Assembly: GCA_038087875.1 (NCBI GenBank)
Contig: CM075990.1
Coordinates: 7,628,001-7,692,000, forward strand
Direction: 5' to 3'
DNA from: Malacoraja senta
Lineage: Eukaryota
Length of the DNA: 64,000 nt
Part shown: positions 39,090 through 61,469 of the stretch, piece by piece
Position numbering within the stretch: position 1 is the stretch's first letter
Layout of the letters: every line of letters begins with the position of its first letter
Notes under the pieces: generated by a model
Told to the model about the DNA's origin: nothing
Databases searched by the model: none
What the model saw: only the letters and a program-made list of their open reading frames with translations
Made by a program: the position numbers and the translations under genes

Positions 39090-40605
39090 ATATTACAGTG
39101 AGGGGTGTATCAGTGTTAGAGTGTTACATTGTGGGGTGTATCAGTGCTAAGTCCCTGTCCCACTTTCCCGAGTTACTCACGAATCCTCCCGAGTTTTCCC
39201 CTTGATTCAAACTCGGGGAATGTCCGTAGGAGTCCGTAGATATTTCATAGTGGCTCGTAATGTCAGCCGTAGGTACTCGGGGCATCAGGTAAGTCGGGAC
39301 ATTTTTTCAGCGTGTTGAAAAATGTCCACGAGTAAAAAAAATAGCCCCATGTACCTACGGCTGGCTATTACGGTAATTCTCCGAGTTTGAATCAAGGGAA
39401 AAACTCGGGAGAATTCGTGAGTAACTCGGGAAAGTGGGACAGGGGCTTAACAGTGTGGGATGTATCAATGTTACAGTGAGAGGTGTATCAGTATTACAGT
39501 GTGGGGTGTATTAATATTACAGTGTGGGGTGTATCAGTGTTACAGTGAGGGGTGTATCAGTGTTACAGTGTGGGGTGTGTCAGTGTTACAGTGGGGGGTG
39601 TATCAGTATTACAGTGTGGGGTGTATCAGTATTACAGTGTGGGGTGTATCAGTATTACAGTGTGGGGTGTATCAGTATTACAGTGTGGGGTGTATCAGTG
39701 TTACAGTGTGGGGTGTACCAGTGTTACAGTGAGGGGTGTATCAGTGTTACAGTGTGGGGTGTACCAGTGTTACAGTGAGGGGTGTATCAGTATTACAGTG
39801 TGGGGTGTATCAGTGTTACAGTGTGGGGTGTATCAGTATTACAGTGAGGGGTGTACCAGTGTTACAGTGAGGGGTGTATCAGTGTTACAGTGTGGGGTGT
39901 ACCAGTGTTACAGTGAGGGGTGTATCAGTATTACAGTGTGGGGTGTATCAGTGTTACAGTGTGGGGTGTGTCAATGTTACAGTGAGGGGTGTATCAGTAT
40001 TACAGTGTGGGGTGTACCAGTGTTACAGTGAGGGGTGTATCAGTATTACAGTGTGGGGTGTATCAGTATTACAGTGGGGGTGTATCAGTATTACAGTGTG
40101 GGGTGTACCAGTGTTACAGTGAGGGTGTATCAGTATTACAGTGTGGGGTGTATCAGTGTTACAGTGTGGGGTGTATCAGTATTACAGTGGGGGTGTATCA
40201 GTATTACAGTGTGGGGTGTATCAGTATTACAGTGTGGGGTGTGTCACTGTTACAGTGTGGGGTGTACCAGTGTTACAGTGAGGGGTGTATCAGTGTTACA
40301 GTGTGGGGTGTATCAGTGTTACAGTGTGGGGTGTATCAGTATTACAGTGAGGGGTGTACCAGTGTTACAGTGTGGGGTGTATCAGTATTACAGTGTGGGG
40401 TGTACCAGTGTTACAGTGAGGGTGTATCAGTGTTACAGTGTGGGGTGTATCAGTGTTACAGTGTGGGGTGTATCAGTGTTACAGTGTGGGGTGTATCAGT
40501 ATTACAGTGGGGGTGTATCAGTATTACAGTGTGGGGTGTATCAGTATTACAGTGTGGGGTGTACCAGTGTTACAGTGAGGGGTGTATCAGCATTACAGTG
40601 CGTGG
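39090..40605. repeat. 23-bp minisatellite
   Basis: Unit gtatcagt(g/a)ttacagtg(t/a)ggggt, about 50 copies; the first units are separated from the rest by a MITE. Confidence 0.95.
39150..39447. mobile_element. Harbinger-like MITE, subfamily A, inserted into the 23-bp minisatellite
   Basis: TIRs ccctgtcccactttcccgagttactcacgaat; satellite units on both sides. Confidence 0.85.
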
Positions 40606-41670: not shown

Positions 41671-42206
41671 CACTCCCTTACTTATTTATCCTGTCTATTT
41701 CTCAGTCTCTGCCTTAAATTCTAACCATAAACCCTGTCATAAATTGCAGAATTTTCTTACAGAAGTGTCACCAGGTGACACATACATCTTCCGTTGGCTA
41801 GAAACAGACAATCTAAATCCAGGACTAATGACCATCCCATCCATCCATCTCAGCTACACGTTCTTTCCATGTGAGATGTCAGCGTTATTCTTCCACATCA
41901 GGTCCTCTCCAGTAATGACATTTCTCCGGGAATATTGAATGCAGTTTCACCAAACTTTTCTCTGAGGATTCAGTCATGACCTTTCTGTGCTTTCTGTGTG
42001 GAGTTTGCAATGTTCTCTGTCTGGCTGCATCCATTTGCTCCAAATCGTGGAATTAAATTGTTGTAGATGATCACAGACAGAGGTGGGAATGCTAGTTTGT
42101 CAAAAGTGATATTGATGGTTGAGGCAGGTTGGCTGACCTGGATGGTTTTGGCTTGCGGGGTAATTAGAGATTTGTGTGCAAATTAAGAGCACATGGTATT
42201 GGGGGT

Positions 42207-42344
42207 CTTCTACTTGCGTATGGCGTGTACAGCTTAAAGTTGTAGGACAACTTGTTCTACTTGAACTTATTTGATTGTGCACGCCAGGTTGATTGCATGA
42301 GATGAAACAGGGCAGACCACGTGAAGGTTGCAATCTCCCACTCC
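42207..42344 (-). mobile_element. 138-bp short non-autonomous retroposon with an HDV-like ribozyme head and (AAG)-like tail, inserted into a CR1
   Basis: Flanked by an 11-bp duplication, gtattgggggt (42196-42206) and gtattgagggt (42345-42355), which restores the CR1 frame KLRAHGIGGRVFTWIENW. Minus strand ends ...gccatacgcaagtagaag. No A/B boxes. Second copy at 61336-61469. Confidence 0.85.
42291..42344 (-). ncRNA. Putative minimal HDV-like (nested double pseudoknot) self-cleaving ribozyme, degenerate copy
   Basis: Minus strand: GGAGUGG (P1) GA GAUUGCA (P2) ACC (P3) UUCACGU (L3) GGU (P3') CUGCCCU (P1', G1-U wobble) GUUUCAUCUCA UGCAAUC (P2'). P2 and P3 pair perfectly. P1 has one mismatch and J4/2 is mutated in this copy. 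Confidence 0.7.
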
Positions 42345-42696
42345 GTATTGAGGGTAGGGTATTTACATGGATAGAGAACTGGTTGGCAGAAAGGAAGCTA
42401 AGAGTAGGAATTAACGGGTCCTTTTCAGAATGGCAGGCAGTGACGAGTGGGGTGCCACAAGGCTCGGTGTTGGGACCCCAGTTATTATGATATAGGTGAG
42501 TGAATTAAATGTGACATCTCCAGGTTTGCGGATGACACAAAGCTGGGTGGCAGTGTGAGCTGCGATGAGGATGCTATGAGGCTACAGGGTGACTTGGACA
42601 GATTGGGTGAGTGGGCAGATGCAGCATAATACGGTTAAATATGAGGTTATCCACTTTGGTGGCAAGAACAGGAAAGCAGATTATTATCTGAATGGT

Positions 42697-42899
42697 GTAG
42701 GAAAGAACTGCAGGTGCTGGTTTAAATCAAAGGTAGACACGAAATGTTGGAGTAACTCAGCGCGACAGGCAGCATCTCTGGAGAGAAGGAATGGGTGACG
42801 TTGCGGGTCGAAGAAGGGTCTCGACCCGAAACATCACCCATTTCTTCTCCCAGAGATGCTGTTTGTCCTGCTGAGTTACTCTAGCATTTTGTGTCTACC
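42697..42899. mobile_element. Palindromic non-autonomous element made of two inverted Penelope-like pseudo-LTRs
   Basis: Left arm gtagacac...ggagtaactcagc...ggcagcatctctggagagaaggaatgggtgacgtt is the reverse complement of the right arm. 14-bp TSD attatctgaatggt (42683-42696) and attatatgaatggt (42900-42913). Arm sequence matches the 3' end of the PLE at 13676-13766. Confidence 0.8.
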
Positions 42900-45800
42900 A
42901 TTATATGAATGGTCAGATTAGGAAAAGGGGAGATGCAATGAGACCTGTGTGTGCTTGTACATCTAGGAGTGCAGGTGCATGGTTCCTTGAAGGTCGAGTC
43001 GCAGGTATATAAAGTGGTCAAAAAGGCTTTTGGCATTTTGGTTTTCATCAGTCAGAGTATTGAGTATAGAAGTTGGAAGGTCATGTTGCAGTTGTATAAG
43101 ACTTTGGTGAGACTGCATTTAGAATATTGTGTTCAGTTCTGGGCACCATGTTATAGGGAAAATATTGTCAAGCTTGAAAGGGTTCAGAAAAAATTCATGA
43201 GGATGTTGCCAGGACTAGAGGGTGTAAGCTATCGGGAGAGGTTGAGTAGGCTGGGTTGAGTAGACTCTATTCCATGGAGCGCAGGAGGATAAGGGGGGAT
43301 CTTATAGAAGTGTACAAAATCATGAGAGCAATAGATCGGGTAGATGCACAGAGTCTCTTGCCCATAGTAGGGGAATCGAGGACCAGAGGATATAGGTTCA
43401 AGGTTAAGAGGAAACGATTTAATAGGAATCTGAGGGGTAACTTCTTTACACAAAGGGTGGTGGGTGTATGCAACAAGCTGCCAGAGGAGGTAGTTGAGGC
43501 TGGGACTATCCCTTAGTTTAAGAGGCAGTTAGACAGGTGCATGGAAAGGACAGGTTTGGAGGGATATGGACCAAACGCGGGCAAGTGGGACTAGTGTAGC
43601 TGGGACATTGTTGGCTGGTGTGGGCAAGTTGGGCCCAATGGCCTGTTTCCACACTGTATCACTCTATGACTCTATCAGTCACTGAAAGTAAGCATGCAGG
43701 TACAACAGGCAGTGAAGAAAGGTAATGGCATGTTGGCCTTCATTGCGAGAGGATTTGAGTTTAGGAGCAAGGAGGTCCGACTGCAGTTGTACAGAGCCCT
43801 GGTGAGACCGGACCTGGAGTATTGTGTGCAATGTTGCTCTCCTAATTTGAGGAAGGACATTATTGCTATTGAAGGAGTGCAGCGTAGGTTCACCAGGTTA
43901 ATTCCCAGGATGGCGGGACTGATATATAATGAATGAATGGGTCGACTGGGCTTGTATTCACTGGAATTTAGAAGGATGAGAGGGGCTCTTATAGAAACAT
44001 ATAACATTCTTAAAGGATTGGACAGGCTCGATGCAGGAAAAATGTTTCTAATGTTGGGGGAGTCCAGAACCAGGGGTTAAACTCACAGTTTAAGAATAAG
44101 GGGTAGGCTATTTAGGACTGAGATGAGGAAAAACTTCTTCACCCAGAGGGTTGCGAATCTGTGGAATTCTCTGCCACAGAAGGCAATGGGGGCTAATTCA
44201 CTGGATGTTTTCAAGAGAGATTTAGCTCTTAGGGCGAAGGGAATCAAGGGATATGGGGAAAAAGCAGGAACGGGGTACATTGTATATGATAAGCCATGAT
44301 CTAATTGAATGGCGGTGCTGGCTCGAAGGACCAAATGGCCTACTCCTGCACCTATTTTTCTATGTTTCTATGTTTCTATTAGTGCCTCTTTCATAAGTTC
44401 ATGTTCATAAGTGATAGGAGCAGAATTAGGCCATTCGGCCCATCAGGTCTATGCCATTGAAACATGGCTGATCTATTTTTCCCTCCCAGCCCCATTCTCC
44501 TGCCTTCTCCTCATAACCCGTGACACCCTTACTAATCAAGTATCTGTCAATCTCCAGCTAAAAGAAAACCCAATGACTTGGCCTCCACAGCCGTCTGTGG
44601 CAGAGAATTCCACAGATTCACCACCCTCTGTCTAATCCAATCATTCTCGTAAACCTCCTCCAGACGCCAGCACATCCTTCCGCAGATATGGGGCCCAAAA
44701 CTGCTCACAACACTCCAACTGTGGTTTGACCAGTACCTTGTAAAGCCCCAGCATCACATCCCTGCTTAATATTCTAGTCATCTCAAAATAAATAAATACT
44801 AGCATTGCATTTGCCTTCCTTACTACCAATCCGAATTGCAAATTAACTTTTTGGGAATCCTGCACCACCACTCCCAAGTACATTTGCCCCTCCGATTTCT
44901 GAATTATCTCCCCATTTAGAAAATAGTCTACGCTTTCATAATCTATGCCTCCTATCAAAATGCATGACTCCGCACTTTGCTGCGCTGTTTTCCATCTGCC
45001 ACCTCTCTGCCCACTATTCTAACTTGCCCAAGTCCTTCTGCAGAGTTCCATCTTTCTCTACACTACCTGCCCCTCCACCTATCTTCGTATCAGCTGCAAA
45101 CCCGTCCACAAAGCCTTCAATCCCCTCGTCCAAATCGTTGCTATACAACGTGAAGAGTGGCGGCCCCAGCACCGAGCCCTGCGGAACTCCGCTGGTCACT
45201 GGCAGCCAACCAGAAAAAGCCCCTCTTTGCCTTCTGCCAACCAGCCAGCCTGCGATCCATACTTGTCTAGTTTTAGTTTAGTTCTGACCCACTCTTTCTC
45301 CTCACGCTCCACTTTAGAGGCATAAAAATACAGAACTTGTGAAGGAAATTTAGTAGTAATGTGGGTGGTTGTTCAACGTGATTCATTTATTTATTCATGC
45401 TAACCTTGTCAGAGGATTTGTAGGAATCCCATGAGGACGTTCCAATCTATAAATGTTGATGTAAATGTGCATTGAGCTTAAGCGCAGGAAAATGGGAAAG
45501 TGGATAACATAAAAGAAAATATAACAGGACCCTGCACAGATTTATGGGAGTTAAAGGGAATAAATAGAGATTCTGTTCAACAATGAGAAATATTTAAACA
45601 ACAAAAAAATAAGATTAGTTTAGTTTAGAGATACAGCGCAGAAACAGGCCCTTCGGCCCATCGAGGCCGCACTGGCCAGCGATCGCTGCACATTAACACT
45701 ATCCTACACACACTAGGAATAATTTTACATTTATACCAAGCCAATTAACAACAAAAGAATTACCCCCTTTGATATCTCATTCTCACACCTTACTCTTCCT

Positions 45801-49872: not shown

Positions 49873-52800
49873 CGTTGCTGGTTAGAGAGGAGATTAACGC
49901 AATAGAAAGGAAGGACATTAGCTTGGAGGATGTTGAATCGATATGGGTAGAGCTGCGAAACACTAAGGGGGAGAAAACACTAGTGGGAGTTGTGTACAGG
50001 CCACCTAACAGTAGTAGTGAAGTTGGGGATGGTATCAAACAGGAAATTAGAAATGCATGCAACAAAGGTAAAACAGTTATAATGGGTGACTTCAATCTAC
50101 ATATAGATTGGGTGAATCAAATTGGCAGGGGTGCTGAGGAAGAGGATTTCTTGGAATGTATGCGGGATAGTTTTCTAAACCAACATGTAGAGGAACTAAC
50201 GAGAGAACAGGCTATTCTAGACTGGGTATTGAGTAATGAGGTAGGGTTGGTTAGCAGTCTTGTGTGTGGCCCCTTGGGCAAGAGTGACCATAATATGGTT
50301 GAGTTCTTCATTAGGATGGAGAGTGACATTGTTAATTCAGAAACAAGGGTTCTGAACTTAAAGAAGGGTAACTTTGAGGATATGAGACATGAATTGGCCA
50401 AGATAGACTGGCAAGTGATTCTTAAAGGGTTGACGGTGGATATGCAATGGAAGGCATTTAAAGACTGCATGGATGAACTACAACAATTGTTCATCCCAGT
50501 TTGGCAAAAGAATAAATCAGGGAAGGTAGCGCATCCGTGGATAACAAGGGAAATCAGGGATAGTATCAAAACAAAAGAGGAAGCATACAAATTAGCCAGA
50601 AAAAGCAGCCTAACAGAGGACTGGGAGAAATTCAAAGTCCAGCAGAGGAGGACAAAGGGCTTAATTAGGAAAGGGAAAATAGATTATGAAAAAAACTGGC
50701 AGGGAACATAAAAACTGACTGCAAAAGTTTTTATACATATGTGAAGAGAAAAAGATTAGTTAAAACAAATGTAGGTCCCTTGCACTCAGAAACGGGTGAA
50801 TTGATCATGGGGAACAAGGATATGGCAGACCAATTGAATAACTACTTTGGTTCTAAGGAAGACATAAATAATCTGCCGGAAATAGCAGGGGACCAGGGGT
50901 CAAATGAGATGGAGGAACTGAGTGAAATCCCGGTTAGCCGGGAAGTGGTGTTACGTAAATTGAATGGATTAAAGGCCGATAAATCCCCAGGACCAGACAG
51001 GCTGCATCCCAGAGTACTTAAGGAAGTAGCCCCAGAAATAGTGGATGCATTAGTGATAATTTTTCAGAACTCTTTAGATTCTGGAGTAGTTCCTGAGGAT
51101 TGGAGGGTAGCTAATGTAACCCCACTTTTTAAAAATGGAGGAAGAGAGAAAACGGGGAATCACAGACCAGTTAGTCTAACATCGGTAGTGGGGAAAATGC
51201 TAGTCAGTTATTAAAGATGGGATAGCAGCACATTTGGAAAGTGGTGAAATCATTGGACAAAGTCAGCGTGGATTTATGAATGGTAAATCATGTCTGACGA
51301 ATCTTCTAGAATTTTTCGAGGATGTAACTAGTAGAGTCGATAAGGAAGAACCAGTGGATGTGTTATATCTGGACTTTCAGAAGGCTTTCGACAAGGTCCC
51401 ACATAAGAGATTAGTATGCAAACTTAAAGCACACGGTATTGGGGGTTCAGTATTGATGTGGATAGAGAACTGGCTGGCAGACAGGAAGCAAAGAGTAGGA
51501 GTAAACGGGTCCTTTTCAGAATGGCAGGCAGTGACTAGTGGGGTACCGCAAGGCTCAGTGCTGGGACCCCAGCTATTTACAATATATATTAATGAACTGG
51601 ATGAGGGAATTGAATGCAACATCTCCAAGTTTGCGGATGACACTAAGCTGGGGGGCAGTGTTAGCTGTGAGGAGAATGCTAGGAGGCTGCAAGGTGACTT
51701 GGATAGGTTGGGTGAGTGGGCAAATGCATGGCAGATGCAGTATAATGTGGATAAATGCGAGGTTATCCACTTTGTTGGCAAAAACAGGAAATGAGACTAT
51801 TATCTGAATGGTGGCCGATTAGGAAAAGGGGAGATACAACGAGATCTGGGTGTCATGGTATACCAGTCATTGAAAGTAGGCATGCAGGTGCAGCAGGCAG
51901 TGAAGAAAGCGAATGGTATGTTAGCATTCATAGCAAAAGGATTTGAGTATAAGAGCAGTGAGGTTCTACTGCAGTTGTACAGGGTCTTGGTGAGGCCACA
52001 ACTGGAGTATTGCGTACAGTGTTGGTCACCAAATCTGACGAAAGACATTCTTGCCATAGAGGGAGTACAGAGCAGGTTCATCAGACTGATTCCTGGGATG
52101 GCAGGACTTTCATATGAAGAAAGACTGGATAGACTCGGCTTGTACTCACTAGAATTTAGAAGATTGAGGGGGGATGTTATAGAAACTTACAAGATTCTTA
52201 AGGGGTTGGACAGGCTAGATGCAGGAAGATTGTTCCCGATGTTGGGGAAGTCCAGAACAAGGGGTCACAGTTTAAGGATAAGGGGGAATTCTTTTAGGAC
52301 TGGGATGAGAAATTCATTTTTCACACAGAGAGTGGTGAATCTGTGGAATCTGTGGAATTCTCTGCCACAGAAGGTAGTTGAGGCCAGTCCATTGGCTATA
52401 TTTAAGAGGGAGTTAGATGTGGCCCTTGTGGCTAAAGGGATCAGGGGGTATGGAGAGAAGGCCTGTACAGGATACTGAGTTGGATGTTCAGCCATGATCA
52501 TATTGAATGGCGGTGCAGGCTCGAAGGGCCGAATGGCCTACTCCGATTAGGAAAAGGGGAGATGCAGCGAGACCTGGGTGTCATGGTACACCATTCATTG
52601 AAAGTAGGCATGCAGGTGCAGCAGGCAGTGAAGAAAGAGAATGGTATGTTAGCTTTCATAGCAAAAGGATTTGAGTATAGGAGCAGGGAGGTTCTACTGC
52701 AGTTGTACAGGGTCTTGGTGAGACCACACCTGGAGTATTGCGTACAGTTTTGGTCTCCAAATCTGAGGAAGGACATTATAGCCATAGAGGGAGTGCAGAG

Positions 52801-53326
52801 AAGGTTCACCAGACTGATTCCTGGGATGTCAGGACTTTCATATGAAGAAAGACTGGATAGACTTGGCTTTTACTCGCTAGAATTTAGGAGATTGAGAGGG
52901 GATCTTATAGAAACGTACAAAATTCTTATGGGGTTGGACAGGCTAAATGCAGGAAGATTGTTCCCGATGTTGGGGAAGTCCAGGACAAGGGGTCACAGCT
53001 TAAGGATAAGGGGGAAATGCTTTAAGACCGAGATGAGAAAAAACCTTTTCACACAGAGAGTGGTGAATCTCTGGAACTCTCTGCCACAGAGGGTAGTTGA
53101 GGCCAGTTGATTGGCTATATTTAAGAGGGAGTTAGATGTGGCCCTTGTGGCTAAAGGGATCAGGGGGTATGGAGAGAAGGCAGGTACGGGATACTGAGTT
53201 GGATGATCAGCCATGATCATATTGAATGGCGGTGCAGGCTCGAAGGGCCGAATGGCCTACTCCTGCACCTATTTTCTATGTATCTATGTATCTATGTATC
53301 CTGCACCTATTTTCTATGTTTCTATG
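49873..53326 (+). mobile_element. CR1-clade LINE of a second subfamily (nearly full ORF2, frameshifted), with a younger copy nested in its 3' UTR at about 52543-53300
   Basis: ORFs 49818-50711 (GVVYRPP, MGDFN, SDHN), 50741-51214, 51234-51794 ([20 protein letters not shown]), 51855-52478 and 52484-53110. The last ~730 bp occur twice. Tails are (TATCTATG)n and (TTTCTATG)n. Confidence 0.95.
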
Positions 53327-56509: not shown

Positions 56510-57142
56510 CACCCTCTGCCGAACCTTCCTGTAACGGAGTGACTTGGACCCCTCTGCCGAACCTTCCTGTAACGGAGTGACTTGGACCCCTCTGCCGAAC
56601 CTTCCTGTAACGGAGTGACGGACCCCTCTGCCGAACCTTCCTGTAACGGAGTGACTTGGACCCCTCTGCCGAACCTTCCTGTAACGGAGTGACTTGGACC
56701 CCTCTGCCGAACCTTCCTGTAACGGAGTGACGGACCCCTCTGCCGAACCTTCCTGTAACGGAGTGACTTGGACCCCTCTGCCGAACCTTCCTGTAACGGA
56801 GTGACTTGGACCCCTCTGCCGAACCTTCCTGTAACGGAGTGACGGACCCCTCTGCCGAACCTTCCTGTAACGGAGTGACGGACCCCTCTGCCGAACCTTC
56901 CTGTAACGGAGTGACGGACCCCTCTGCCGAACCTTCCTGTAACGGAGTGACGGACCCCTCTGCCGAACCTTCCTGTAACGGAGTGACGGACCCCTCTGCC
57001 GAACCTTCCTGTAACGGAGTGACGGACCCCTCTGCCGAACCTTCCTGTAACGGAGTGACGGACCCCTCTGCCGAACCTTCCTGTAACGGAGTGACGGACC
57101 CCTCTGCCGAACCTTCCTGTAACGGAGTGACGGACCCCTCTG
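56510..57142. repeat. 36/38-bp minisatellite
   Basis: Unit gacccctctgccgaaccttcctgtaacggagtgac(g/ttg), about 17 copies. Confidence 0.96.
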
Positions 57143-61335: not shown

Positions 61336-61469
61336 TTCTTCCTCTTGTTGCGTATGGCGTGCACAGCCTAAAGTTGTAGGACAACTTGTTCTATTTGATC
61401 TTATTTGATTGTGCACACCGGGTTGATTGCATTCGTCGAAACAGGCGGACCAGGTGAAGGTTGCAATCT
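61336..61469 (-). mobile_element. Second, 5'-clipped copy of the HDV-ribozyme-headed retroposon
   Basis: Highly similar to 42207-42337. Minus strand reads GAUUGCA ACC UUCACCU GGU CCGCCU GUUUCGA CGAA UGCAAUC, with an intact CGAA J4/2 motif but no 5' P1 strand. Tail caacaagaggaagaa. Confidence 0.8.

What the first reader, a model, noticed from the sequence alone, without database searches (positions are those of the whole stretch)
42207..42344. Ribozyme-headed SINE-like retroposon: a minimal HDV-like ribozyme defines its 5' end
Seen: a 138-bp element bounded by an 11-bp TSD. Its first 54 nt on the minus strand follow the HDV-like order P1-J1/2-P2-P3-L3-P3'-P1'-J4/2-P2': GGAGUGG GA GAUUGCA ACC UUCACGU GGU CUGCCCU GUUUCAUCUCA UGCAAUC. 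It has a G1-U wobble, perfect 7-bp P2, 3-bp P3, 7-nt L3 and a possible single C-G P1.1 pair. The TSD places the element's first base exactly at G1, the position released by self-cleavage. Established: HDV-like ribozymes process 5' ends of R2, RTE and Ingi/L1Tc elements and their short derivatives, and P4 is dispensable. Inference: this family has no Pol III promoter, cuts itself out of host transcripts and uses its (AAG)n-type tail to recruit a LINE enzyme, perhaps Ingi/Vingi-like. I cannot tell whether it has been described.
Basis: partly seen in the sequence, partly recalled or inferred. Interest (0 to 1): 0.88.

Follow-up and report, generated by a model that had tools for sequence, protein, structure and literature searches.

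The report
Tiny ribozyme-headed Vingi hitch-hiker retroposon
This is one worn copy of a very common, very short jumping element made from the two ends of a longer parent element; it starts with an unusually small RNA fold of the self-cutting type, and the parent's broken copies hint at how such short hitch-hikers arise.

Summary
The element is real: 138 bp, 11-bp TSD, empty site confirmed, at least 9,300 copies in this 1.94-Gb genome. Of 60 copies picked by the 3' end alone, 55 reach nt 1-5. I found the parent: a ~3.1-kb single-ORF LINE (APE + RT + C-terminal zinc motif, no RNase H, Vingi-type) that shares nt 1-77 and the last ~40 nt. So this is a bipartite, internally deleted LINE derivative (like R2 SIDEs, RIME/NARTc), not a classical SINE. 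Related LINEs carry HDV-like heads of different sequence with compensatory pairing; this family alone has lost P4 (6-nt loop, 54 nt in all). Cleavage was not shown: Rfam scores are below threshold, poly(A) RNA-seq shows no read starts at G1, and the window copy is damaged (P1 mismatch, altered J4/2). Unexpected: 8 of 40 parent copies are 5'-inverted, all 8 running back into the ribozyme, with second priming sites clustered just behind it. The scan had not noted this family; it noted a different ribozyme-headed element in a fungal genome. New variant of a known kind; Repbase/Dfam not checkable.

The parts
42345..42355 (-). Upstream copy of the 11-bp target-site duplication
   Evidence: 10 of 11 identical; empty site restored
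42291..42344 (-). HDV-like ribozyme head, nt 1-54; G1 = 42344, predicted cleavage just 5' of it
   Evidence: relatives
42338..42344 (-). P1 5' strand (nt 1-7); pairs with 42309-42315 (nt 30-36); this copy has an A3.C mismatch
   Evidence: pair types across families
42329..42335 (-). P2 5' strand (nt 10-16); pairs with 42291-42297 (nt 48-54); J1/2 is the 2 nt at 42336-42337
42316..42328 (-). P3 (3 bp) and 7-nt L3; C22 pairs with G37 (42308) as a one-pair P1.1
   Evidence: P3 pairs in 14 of 14 rows, C-G P1.1 in 14 of 14
42298..42307 (-). 6-nt loop in place of P4 (nt 38-43) and J4/2 (nt 44-47) with catalytic C44 at 42301; damaged in this copy (A46 to C)
42268..42290 (-). Rest of the parent's 5' UTR (nt 55-77); nt 59-69 (42276-42286) form the 5' arm of an 11-bp stem with the tail
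42246..42267 (-). Middle part (nt 78-99), not colinear with the parent; looks built from a short duplication and a short inverted copy of tail sequence (read by eye, inferred)
42207..42245 (-). Parent LINE 3' end (nt 100-138): last codons and stop of the ORF, short 3' UTR, (AAG)n-type tail
42196..42206 (-). Downstream copy of the TSD
61348..61469 (-). Second copy in the window, aligning from nt 9 to 131, 89% identical to the first; no clear TSD

Best explanation
A non-autonomous, internally deleted derivative of a Vingi-type LINE: the parent's first ~77 nt (a 54-nt HDV-like ribozyme without P4, plus a short UTR piece) joined to its last ~40 nt. Shown: architecture, copy number, fixed 5' end, parent, TSD length. 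[quoted passage not shown] Because the RNA is short and its 5' end protected, most copies are full length and each intact copy in a transcript can seed more. The window copy itself is an old passenger in a fragment of another LINE's RT gene and is probably weak or dead as a ribozyme.
For: Copies: 9,360 matches of a 16-nt head motif at up to 1 mismatch against 48 for the control; 3,132 and 3,465 exact matches of a head and a tail motif. 5' ends: 55 of 60 copies picked by the 3' motif align from nt 1-5; TSD found in 51 of 60, and the first base after it is nt 1-3 in 40 of 51, 1-6 extra bases in 10, nt 6 in 1; no shared upstream sequence. Parent: at least 484 candidates and 220 exact 3' ends, shares nt 1-77 and 95/100-138, Pfam Exo_endo_phos_2 + RVT_1, no RNase H in 6 of 6 ORF pieces; most relatives are ~1,000-aa proteins on ~3.2-kb contigs and none of the 120 listed carries PF00075. 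Ribozyme: a descriptor finds HDV-like heads 140-384 nt upstream of the protein match, sense strand only, in 9 of 28 metagenome loci (8 distinct), 0 of 280 shuffles, 0 of 28 reverse strands, and in other LINE families of this genome. On 14 heads, 88% of P1/P3/P1.1 cells pair, covariation 0.505 against 0.200, 0 of 500 shuffles. L3 'UC' goes with 'GU' and 'CC' with 'GG' in 9 of 9, a link the descriptor did not ask for. The parent differs at nt 32 (U.G to U-A in P1) and nt 45 (the variable J4/2 position), both structure-neutral. The two best of 4 Rfam matches are HDV families and span nt 1-54. Inverted parent copies also end at nt 1-18 and show no leader.
Against: No cleavage was measured. Rfam scores are far below gathering (20 of 50 bits, E 0.6; 14.4 of 44, E 1.7). 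In one poly(A) RNA-seq run (about 6% read; species match to this genome not established) the element is covered on both strands but no place shows many molecules beginning; weak, since fragmented poly(A) libraries lose short RNAs and most copies are decayed. Only 19 of 54 copies keep all pairs and core residues. J1/2 is 2 nt, and passages of PMC4908430 report little cleavage with a 1-nt linker and more with 3-7 nt in another ribozyme. G37 and the catalytic C44 could close a small UUCG hairpin instead (by eye). The heads were chosen by a descriptor that demands pairing, so the paired share is partly circular; 19 of 28 upstream regions gave no hit (some hold little upstream DNA). No named Vingi sequence was available for a tree.
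Confidence: 0.75

Rival explanations
1. Same bipartite element, but the 5' end is set by an internal Pol II promoter in the first ~77 nt (as trypanosome Pr77 is both promoter and ribozyme); the HDV-like fold serves as a protective or protein-binding module and cleaves slowly or not at all after losing P4.
For: Shared head is ~77 nt, 23 nt longer than the ribozyme. No pile-up of RNA starts at G1. Pr77 dual role stated in passages of PMC4035085; passages of PMC11331408 say the fold, not necessarily the activity, protects R2 templates and that some R2 ribozymes barely cleave.
Against: No excess G at position -1 that would mark copying of a cap (G 8, T 30 of 54). Catalytic C and the two A's of J4/2 are kept in short element, parent and relatives.
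Confidence: 0.2
2. A Pol III SINE with a small-RNA head that only resembles a ribozyme.
For: A B-box-like word at nt 37-46 with 2 mismatches.
Against: That match is at chance level (48 found, 42.5 expected); no A box inside the element at up to 1 mismatch; ARAGORN finds no tRNA in 3 of 3 loci; the head is the 5' end of a LINE.
Confidence: 0.03
3. The copies are independent deletion accidents of the LINE or DNA-level duplications, not a self-propagating family.
For: Independent internal deletions of the parent exist (L192, L337); a few loci are segmental duplicates (L071/L072).
Against: Thousands of copies share one junction and middle part, have their own TSDs and variable tails, carry shared diagnostic changes, and outnumber the parent about 15 to 1 in exact 3' motifs (3,465 against 220).
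Confidence: 0.02

Closest known systems
R2 SIDEs and R2/R1 hybrid SIDEs (PMC3414825, passages)
   Same: Non-autonomous element made of a LINE's 5' HDV-like ribozyme plus its 3' end; not Pol III; TSDs set by the partner enzyme.
   Different: SIDEs sit only in rDNA, are rare, and have large ribozymes with P4 and long J1/2; this one is dispersed, has thousands of copies, an APE-type partner and no P4.
RIME/NARTc/SIDER with Pr77 of the trypanosomatid Ingi/L1Tc clade (PMC4035085, passages)
   Same: Sister clade; ~77-nt 5' hallmark with an HDV-like ribozyme cleaving 5' of +1, shared by LINE and short derivative.
   Different: Those ribozymes have P4; the host is a protist with polycistronic transcription; Ingi proteins carry RNase H (per PMC13708176).
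Non-autonomous Vingi derivatives, e.g. of Vingi-1_EE, and SINE2-1_ACar (PMC5786205, passages and section 23; original paper PMC3002237 not held)
   Same: Internally deleted, ORF-less derivatives of a single-ORF Vingi LINE.
   Different: [quoted passage not shown]
Minimal (P4-less) HDV-like and theta ribozymes (PMC10879173, passages)
   Same: No P4, short J1/2, catalytic C first in J4/2, cleavage site at G1.
   Different: Reported as nearly 99% confined to Caudoviricetes phages and often beside tRNAs; here it heads a retroposon in a large eukaryotic genome.
L1 5' inversions by twin priming (PMC2912911, PMC4245944, passages)
   Same: Inverted 5' part plus non-inverted 3' part inside one TSD; about 20% of parent copies here, about 30% reported for L1.
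   Different: Reported almost only for L1; here the inverted part nearly always runs to the RNA's 5' end and 1.5-2.9 kb are usually missing between the two parts.

Membership tests
HDV-like ribozyme | Nested double pseudoknot P1, P2, P3, P1.1 in the canonical order | tested here: met
   consensus pairs fully; compensatory pairs among relatives; Rfam HDV models align over nt 1-54
HDV-like ribozyme | G1 paired at the base of P1; catalytic C first in J4/2; conserved L3 | tested here: met
   G1.U36, C44, L3 core kept in consensus, parent and relatives
HDV-like ribozyme | Score at or above an Rfam gathering threshold | tested here: not met
   the models include P4, which is absent here
HDV-like ribozyme | Mg2+-dependent self-cleavage 5' of G1, lost on C-to-U | not testable with these tools
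   needs a bench assay; RNA reads gave no start pile-up
Minimal (P4-less) HDV-like ribozyme | P4 absent | tested here: met
   7 nt from G37 up to the catalytic C against 16-44 in relatives
Theta ribozyme | Phage genome, cleavage site next to a tRNA | tested here: not met
   eukaryotic repeat; no tRNA
Bipartite non-autonomous LINE (SIDE/RIME type) | 5' and 3' ends both from one autonomous LINE, no ORF | tested here: met
Bipartite non-autonomous LINE (SIDE/RIME type) | Marks of TPRT: TSDs, simple-repeat tail, some 5' truncation | tested here: met
   TSD in 51 of 60, 3 of 60 truncated short elements
Vingi clade (parent) | Compact single ORF with APE and RT | tested here: met
   genomic copies are frameshifted, intact ~1,000-aa relatives exist
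Vingi clade (parent) | No RNase H domain | tested here: met
Vingi clade (parent) | RT phylogeny as sister to Ingi | not tested
   no named Vingi or Ingi sequence among the 120 listed hits or in PDB
Pol III SINE | tRNA/5S/7SL head with A and B boxes | tested here: not met

The most novel reading that the evidence does not exclude
The 54-nt P4-less fold is an active ribozyme, a minimal type so far reported almost only from phages, here spread in thousands of copies through a large eukaryotic genome; and in the parent's integration complex the ribozyme-bearing 5' module is held next to the insertion site even when the middle of the RNA is lost. That one property would explain both the inversions that prime just behind the ribozyme (9 of 19 at nt 72-83, 12 of 19 at nt 122 or less; 16 of 19 run back to nt 18 or less) and the birth of head-plus-tail elements at the same breakpoint (nt ~77-80), and so offers an answer to the open question in PMC5786205 of why only a few LINE clades give bipartite derivatives.
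Probability: 0.3. Interest if true: 0.75.

Novelty: new variant of a known kind. Interest (0 to 1): 0.52.

Why it matters
It extends 5' HDV-like ribozymes to several Vingi-type families, shows that the fold can shrink to 54 nt inside a successful retroposon, and gives a natural minimal template (138 nt, ends only) for a LINE clade now used for RNA-only gene insertion (PMC13708176, passages). The parent's frequent 5' inversions matter for that use and give a genomic handle on how the 5' RNA end takes part in integration outside R2 and L1.

Tried and rejected
Rfam at gathering score on the window: nothing. MFE z-scores of the head: uninformative. tRNA head, A box, B box: not found or at chance. 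Sequencing-run search: no RNA holder listed; contig rows only repeat the DNA boundaries and were not used for expression. Pairing between the post-ribozyme UTR and the 3' end as a general Vingi feature: strong in the short element (0 of 500 shuffles), modest or absent in two parent comparisons (8 and 128 of 500), nominal in 1 of 8 other families: rejected as general. Lower divergence of the ribozyme than of nt 55-114 (2.8% against 5.7% outside CpG) not used as a sign of selection, because subfamily variants inflate the second figure. In one search row L247 was mis-registered by one base for P2 and J4/2 (it pairs 8 of 8), so the P2 own-pairing of 0.89 there is too low; MAFFT did not align P2', so P2 was left out. 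The uniform null for priming sites is too lenient: nt 67-77 is one of only four very A-rich stretches in the parent and upstream flanks often end in T. PDB has no Vingi or Ingi protein. My guess that the host is a cartilaginous fish is recalled, not tested; the search on it gave nothing with Vingi. Ruminski 2011 and Kojima 2011 were not held.

Full report
Observation. An 11-bp direct repeat flanks it with one mismatch. The element sits in an RT fragment of another LINE (CR1-like by recall); joining the flanks with one TSD copy removed restores an open stretch and matches other copies of that repeat, 18 of 21 hits spanning the junction. The first inserted base is therefore G1. A second, 5'-shortened copy lies at 61348-61469.

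Family. In the own genome (1.94 Gb) a 16-nt head motif has 9,360 matches at up to one mismatch against 48 for the reversed control; exact head and tail motifs have 3,132 and 3,465. To avoid bias I took the first 60 of the 3,465 tail matches. Of these, 44 align from nt 1, 8 from nt 2, 3 from nt 3-5, 3 are 5'-truncated and 2 are LINE-type ends; two loci are duplicates of each other. A TSD was found in 51 of 60 (7-16 bp, 10-14 bp in 44); the base after it is nt 1 in 23, nt 2-3 in 17 (TSDs ending in G, ambiguous), nt 6 in 1, and 10 have 1-6 extra bases. Upstream flanks share nothing but T at -1 in 30 of 54. Mean divergence from consensus is 5.4%; 19 of 54 copies keep every pair and core residue. 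The window copy has 11 differences, among them an A3.C mismatch in P1 and A46 to C; C44 is kept.

Parent. Locus L031 ended in the same tail but carried a coding 3' end with a C-terminal Cys/His motif. Walking upstream gave a ~3.1-kb LINE that shares nt 1-77 and about the last 40 nt with the short element; its stop codon lies inside the shared tail. Six ORF pieces covering it gave APE and RT domains and no RNase H; most relatives are ~1,000-aa proteins on ~3.2-kb contigs, none of the 120 listed with RNase H. This fits the description of Vingi in passages of PMC13708176 and PMC3894237; no tree with named members was possible. It has 220 exact 3' ends.

Ribozyme. In consensus numbering P1 is 1-7/30-36, J1/2 8-9, P2 10-16/48-54, P3 17-19/27-29, L3 20-26, P1.1 22/37, a 6-nt loop 38-43, J4/2 44-47. 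Rfam's two best of four weak matches on a consensus-like copy are HDV families covering exactly this span, far below gathering. A descriptor run on the DNA upstream of related ORFs hit 9 of 28 metagenome loci (8 distinct), all sense and 140-384 nt before the protein match, against 0 of 280 shuffles and 0 of 28 reverse strands; a stricter version gave 7 hits and none in 1.04 Mb of shuffles. At least three other LINE families of this genome have full or partial heads of other sequence. On an unguided alignment of 14 heads P1, P3 and P1.1 pair in 88% of cells with 29 two-sided changes, above all 500 shuffles and all slid controls; the rows were chosen by a pairing descriptor, so this is partly circular, but the match of L3 positions 2-3 to the two bases after P1' in 9 of 9 was not asked for. 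All relatives have 16-44 nt where this family has 7: it alone lacks P4. Passages of PMC10879173 define minimal ribozymes by this lack and report nearly 99% of them in phages, with a limited eukaryote set searched.

RNA. No RNA holder was listed. One raw poly(A) run from the same study as the best DNA holders covers the element on both strands at a depth of a few hundred, and no place shows many molecules beginning or ending. This counts weakly against frequent cleavage in polyadenylated RNA.

Inversions in the parent. Among 51 distinct loci from two similarity searches, 11 are 5'-inverted. As an independent sample I took 40 of the 220 exact 3' ends, consecutive on contig C1 (20 with 3.5 kb and 20 with 1.6 kb upstream; 4 did not show their 5' junction): 8 are inverted, all 8 run back to nt 18 or less, and all lack 1.5 kb or more between the two parts. 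TSDs enclose the whole structure in 12 of 17 inverted loci tested. Over the 19, 16 reach nt 18 or less, 12 prime at nt 122 or less (1.7 expected under a uniform null) and 9 at nt 72-83, where the short element and one other deletion copy (L192) also break. The inverted heads are parent-type at nt 32 in 15 of 16, so they were not taken from the short element's pool. Caveat: nt 67-77 is one of four very A-rich stretches of the parent and flanks often end in T, so composition explains part of the cluster. Passages of PMC4245944 found inversions almost only with L1; PMC2912911 gives about 30% for L1. These junctions are a second record that the template begins at or just after G1 with no leader.

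Mechanism. Shown: architecture, parent, fixed 5' end, conserved fold. Inferred: read-through transcription, self-cleavage, trans-mobilisation by TPRT (0.75). A Pr77-like internal promoter with a protective fold is the main rival (0.2). The short element has also lengthened a stem between nt 59-69 and its tail (3' domain z -3.96; duplex 0 of 500 shuffles), not general among relatives.

Literature. Seen as passages: PMC13708176, PMC4245944, PMC4035085, PMC10879173, PMC4908430, PMC2912911, PMC11331408, PMC3894237, PMC6765202, PMC3414825; passages and section 23: PMC5786205. Not held: PMC3308841, PMC3002237, known only from citations. No supplements were opened; those of PMC5786205 and the two missing papers may already show Vingi ribozymes. 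Eight searches turned up no description of this family, of a Vingi ribozyme, or of Vingi inversions; Repbase and Dfam could not be searched, so the family may be catalogued. Earlier scan notes held nothing on this sequence or genome and one unrelated fungal case.

Verdict. A real, well-defined new variant of a known kind. The concept is established; the P4-less head, the abundance and the inversion pattern are the parts a specialist would look at twice. Interest 0.52.

Noticed in passing
L302:3879-3953(-), L309:3807-3879(-), L316:570-640(+), L305: At least three more Vingi/Ingi-type LINE families in this genome with HDV-like heads of other sequence, all with P4; some copies have open frames of ~1,000 codons.
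   Followed up: partly
L307, 5' junction; also L298: The ribozyme core is copied two to three times in tandem at the 5' junction, as if the RT re-primed on the RNA's 5' end.
   Followed up: no
L031-L090 flanks: T at position -1 in 30 of 54 short copies, and TSDs ending in G in 17 of 51: junctions may be chosen by pairing with the cDNA end or with added A's.
   Followed up: partly
L032, L050, L058, L059, L070: Short-element subfamilies closer to the parent (A32, U45, longer parent UTR, other junctions), suggesting stepwise or repeated origin.
   Followed up: partly
L192:4202-5800, L337: Parent copies with a full head and one large internal deletion inside a single TSD (L192 joins nt ~80 to ~1570): candidate intermediates.
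   Followed up: partly
L184:4147-4168: Inversion junction holds a 20-nt fold-back copy of the ribozyme's P2-P3 region.
   Followed up: no
window 39450-40600: 23-bp tandem array, about 50 copies, 91% matches.
   Followed up: no
window 56512-57142: Very homogeneous G+C-rich 36/112-bp tandem array, 98-99% matches.
   Followed up: no
window 42161-44700 and 51324-53297: Long degenerate RT fragments of an abundant LINE (CR1-like by recall); the element is inserted in one of them.
   Followed up: partly
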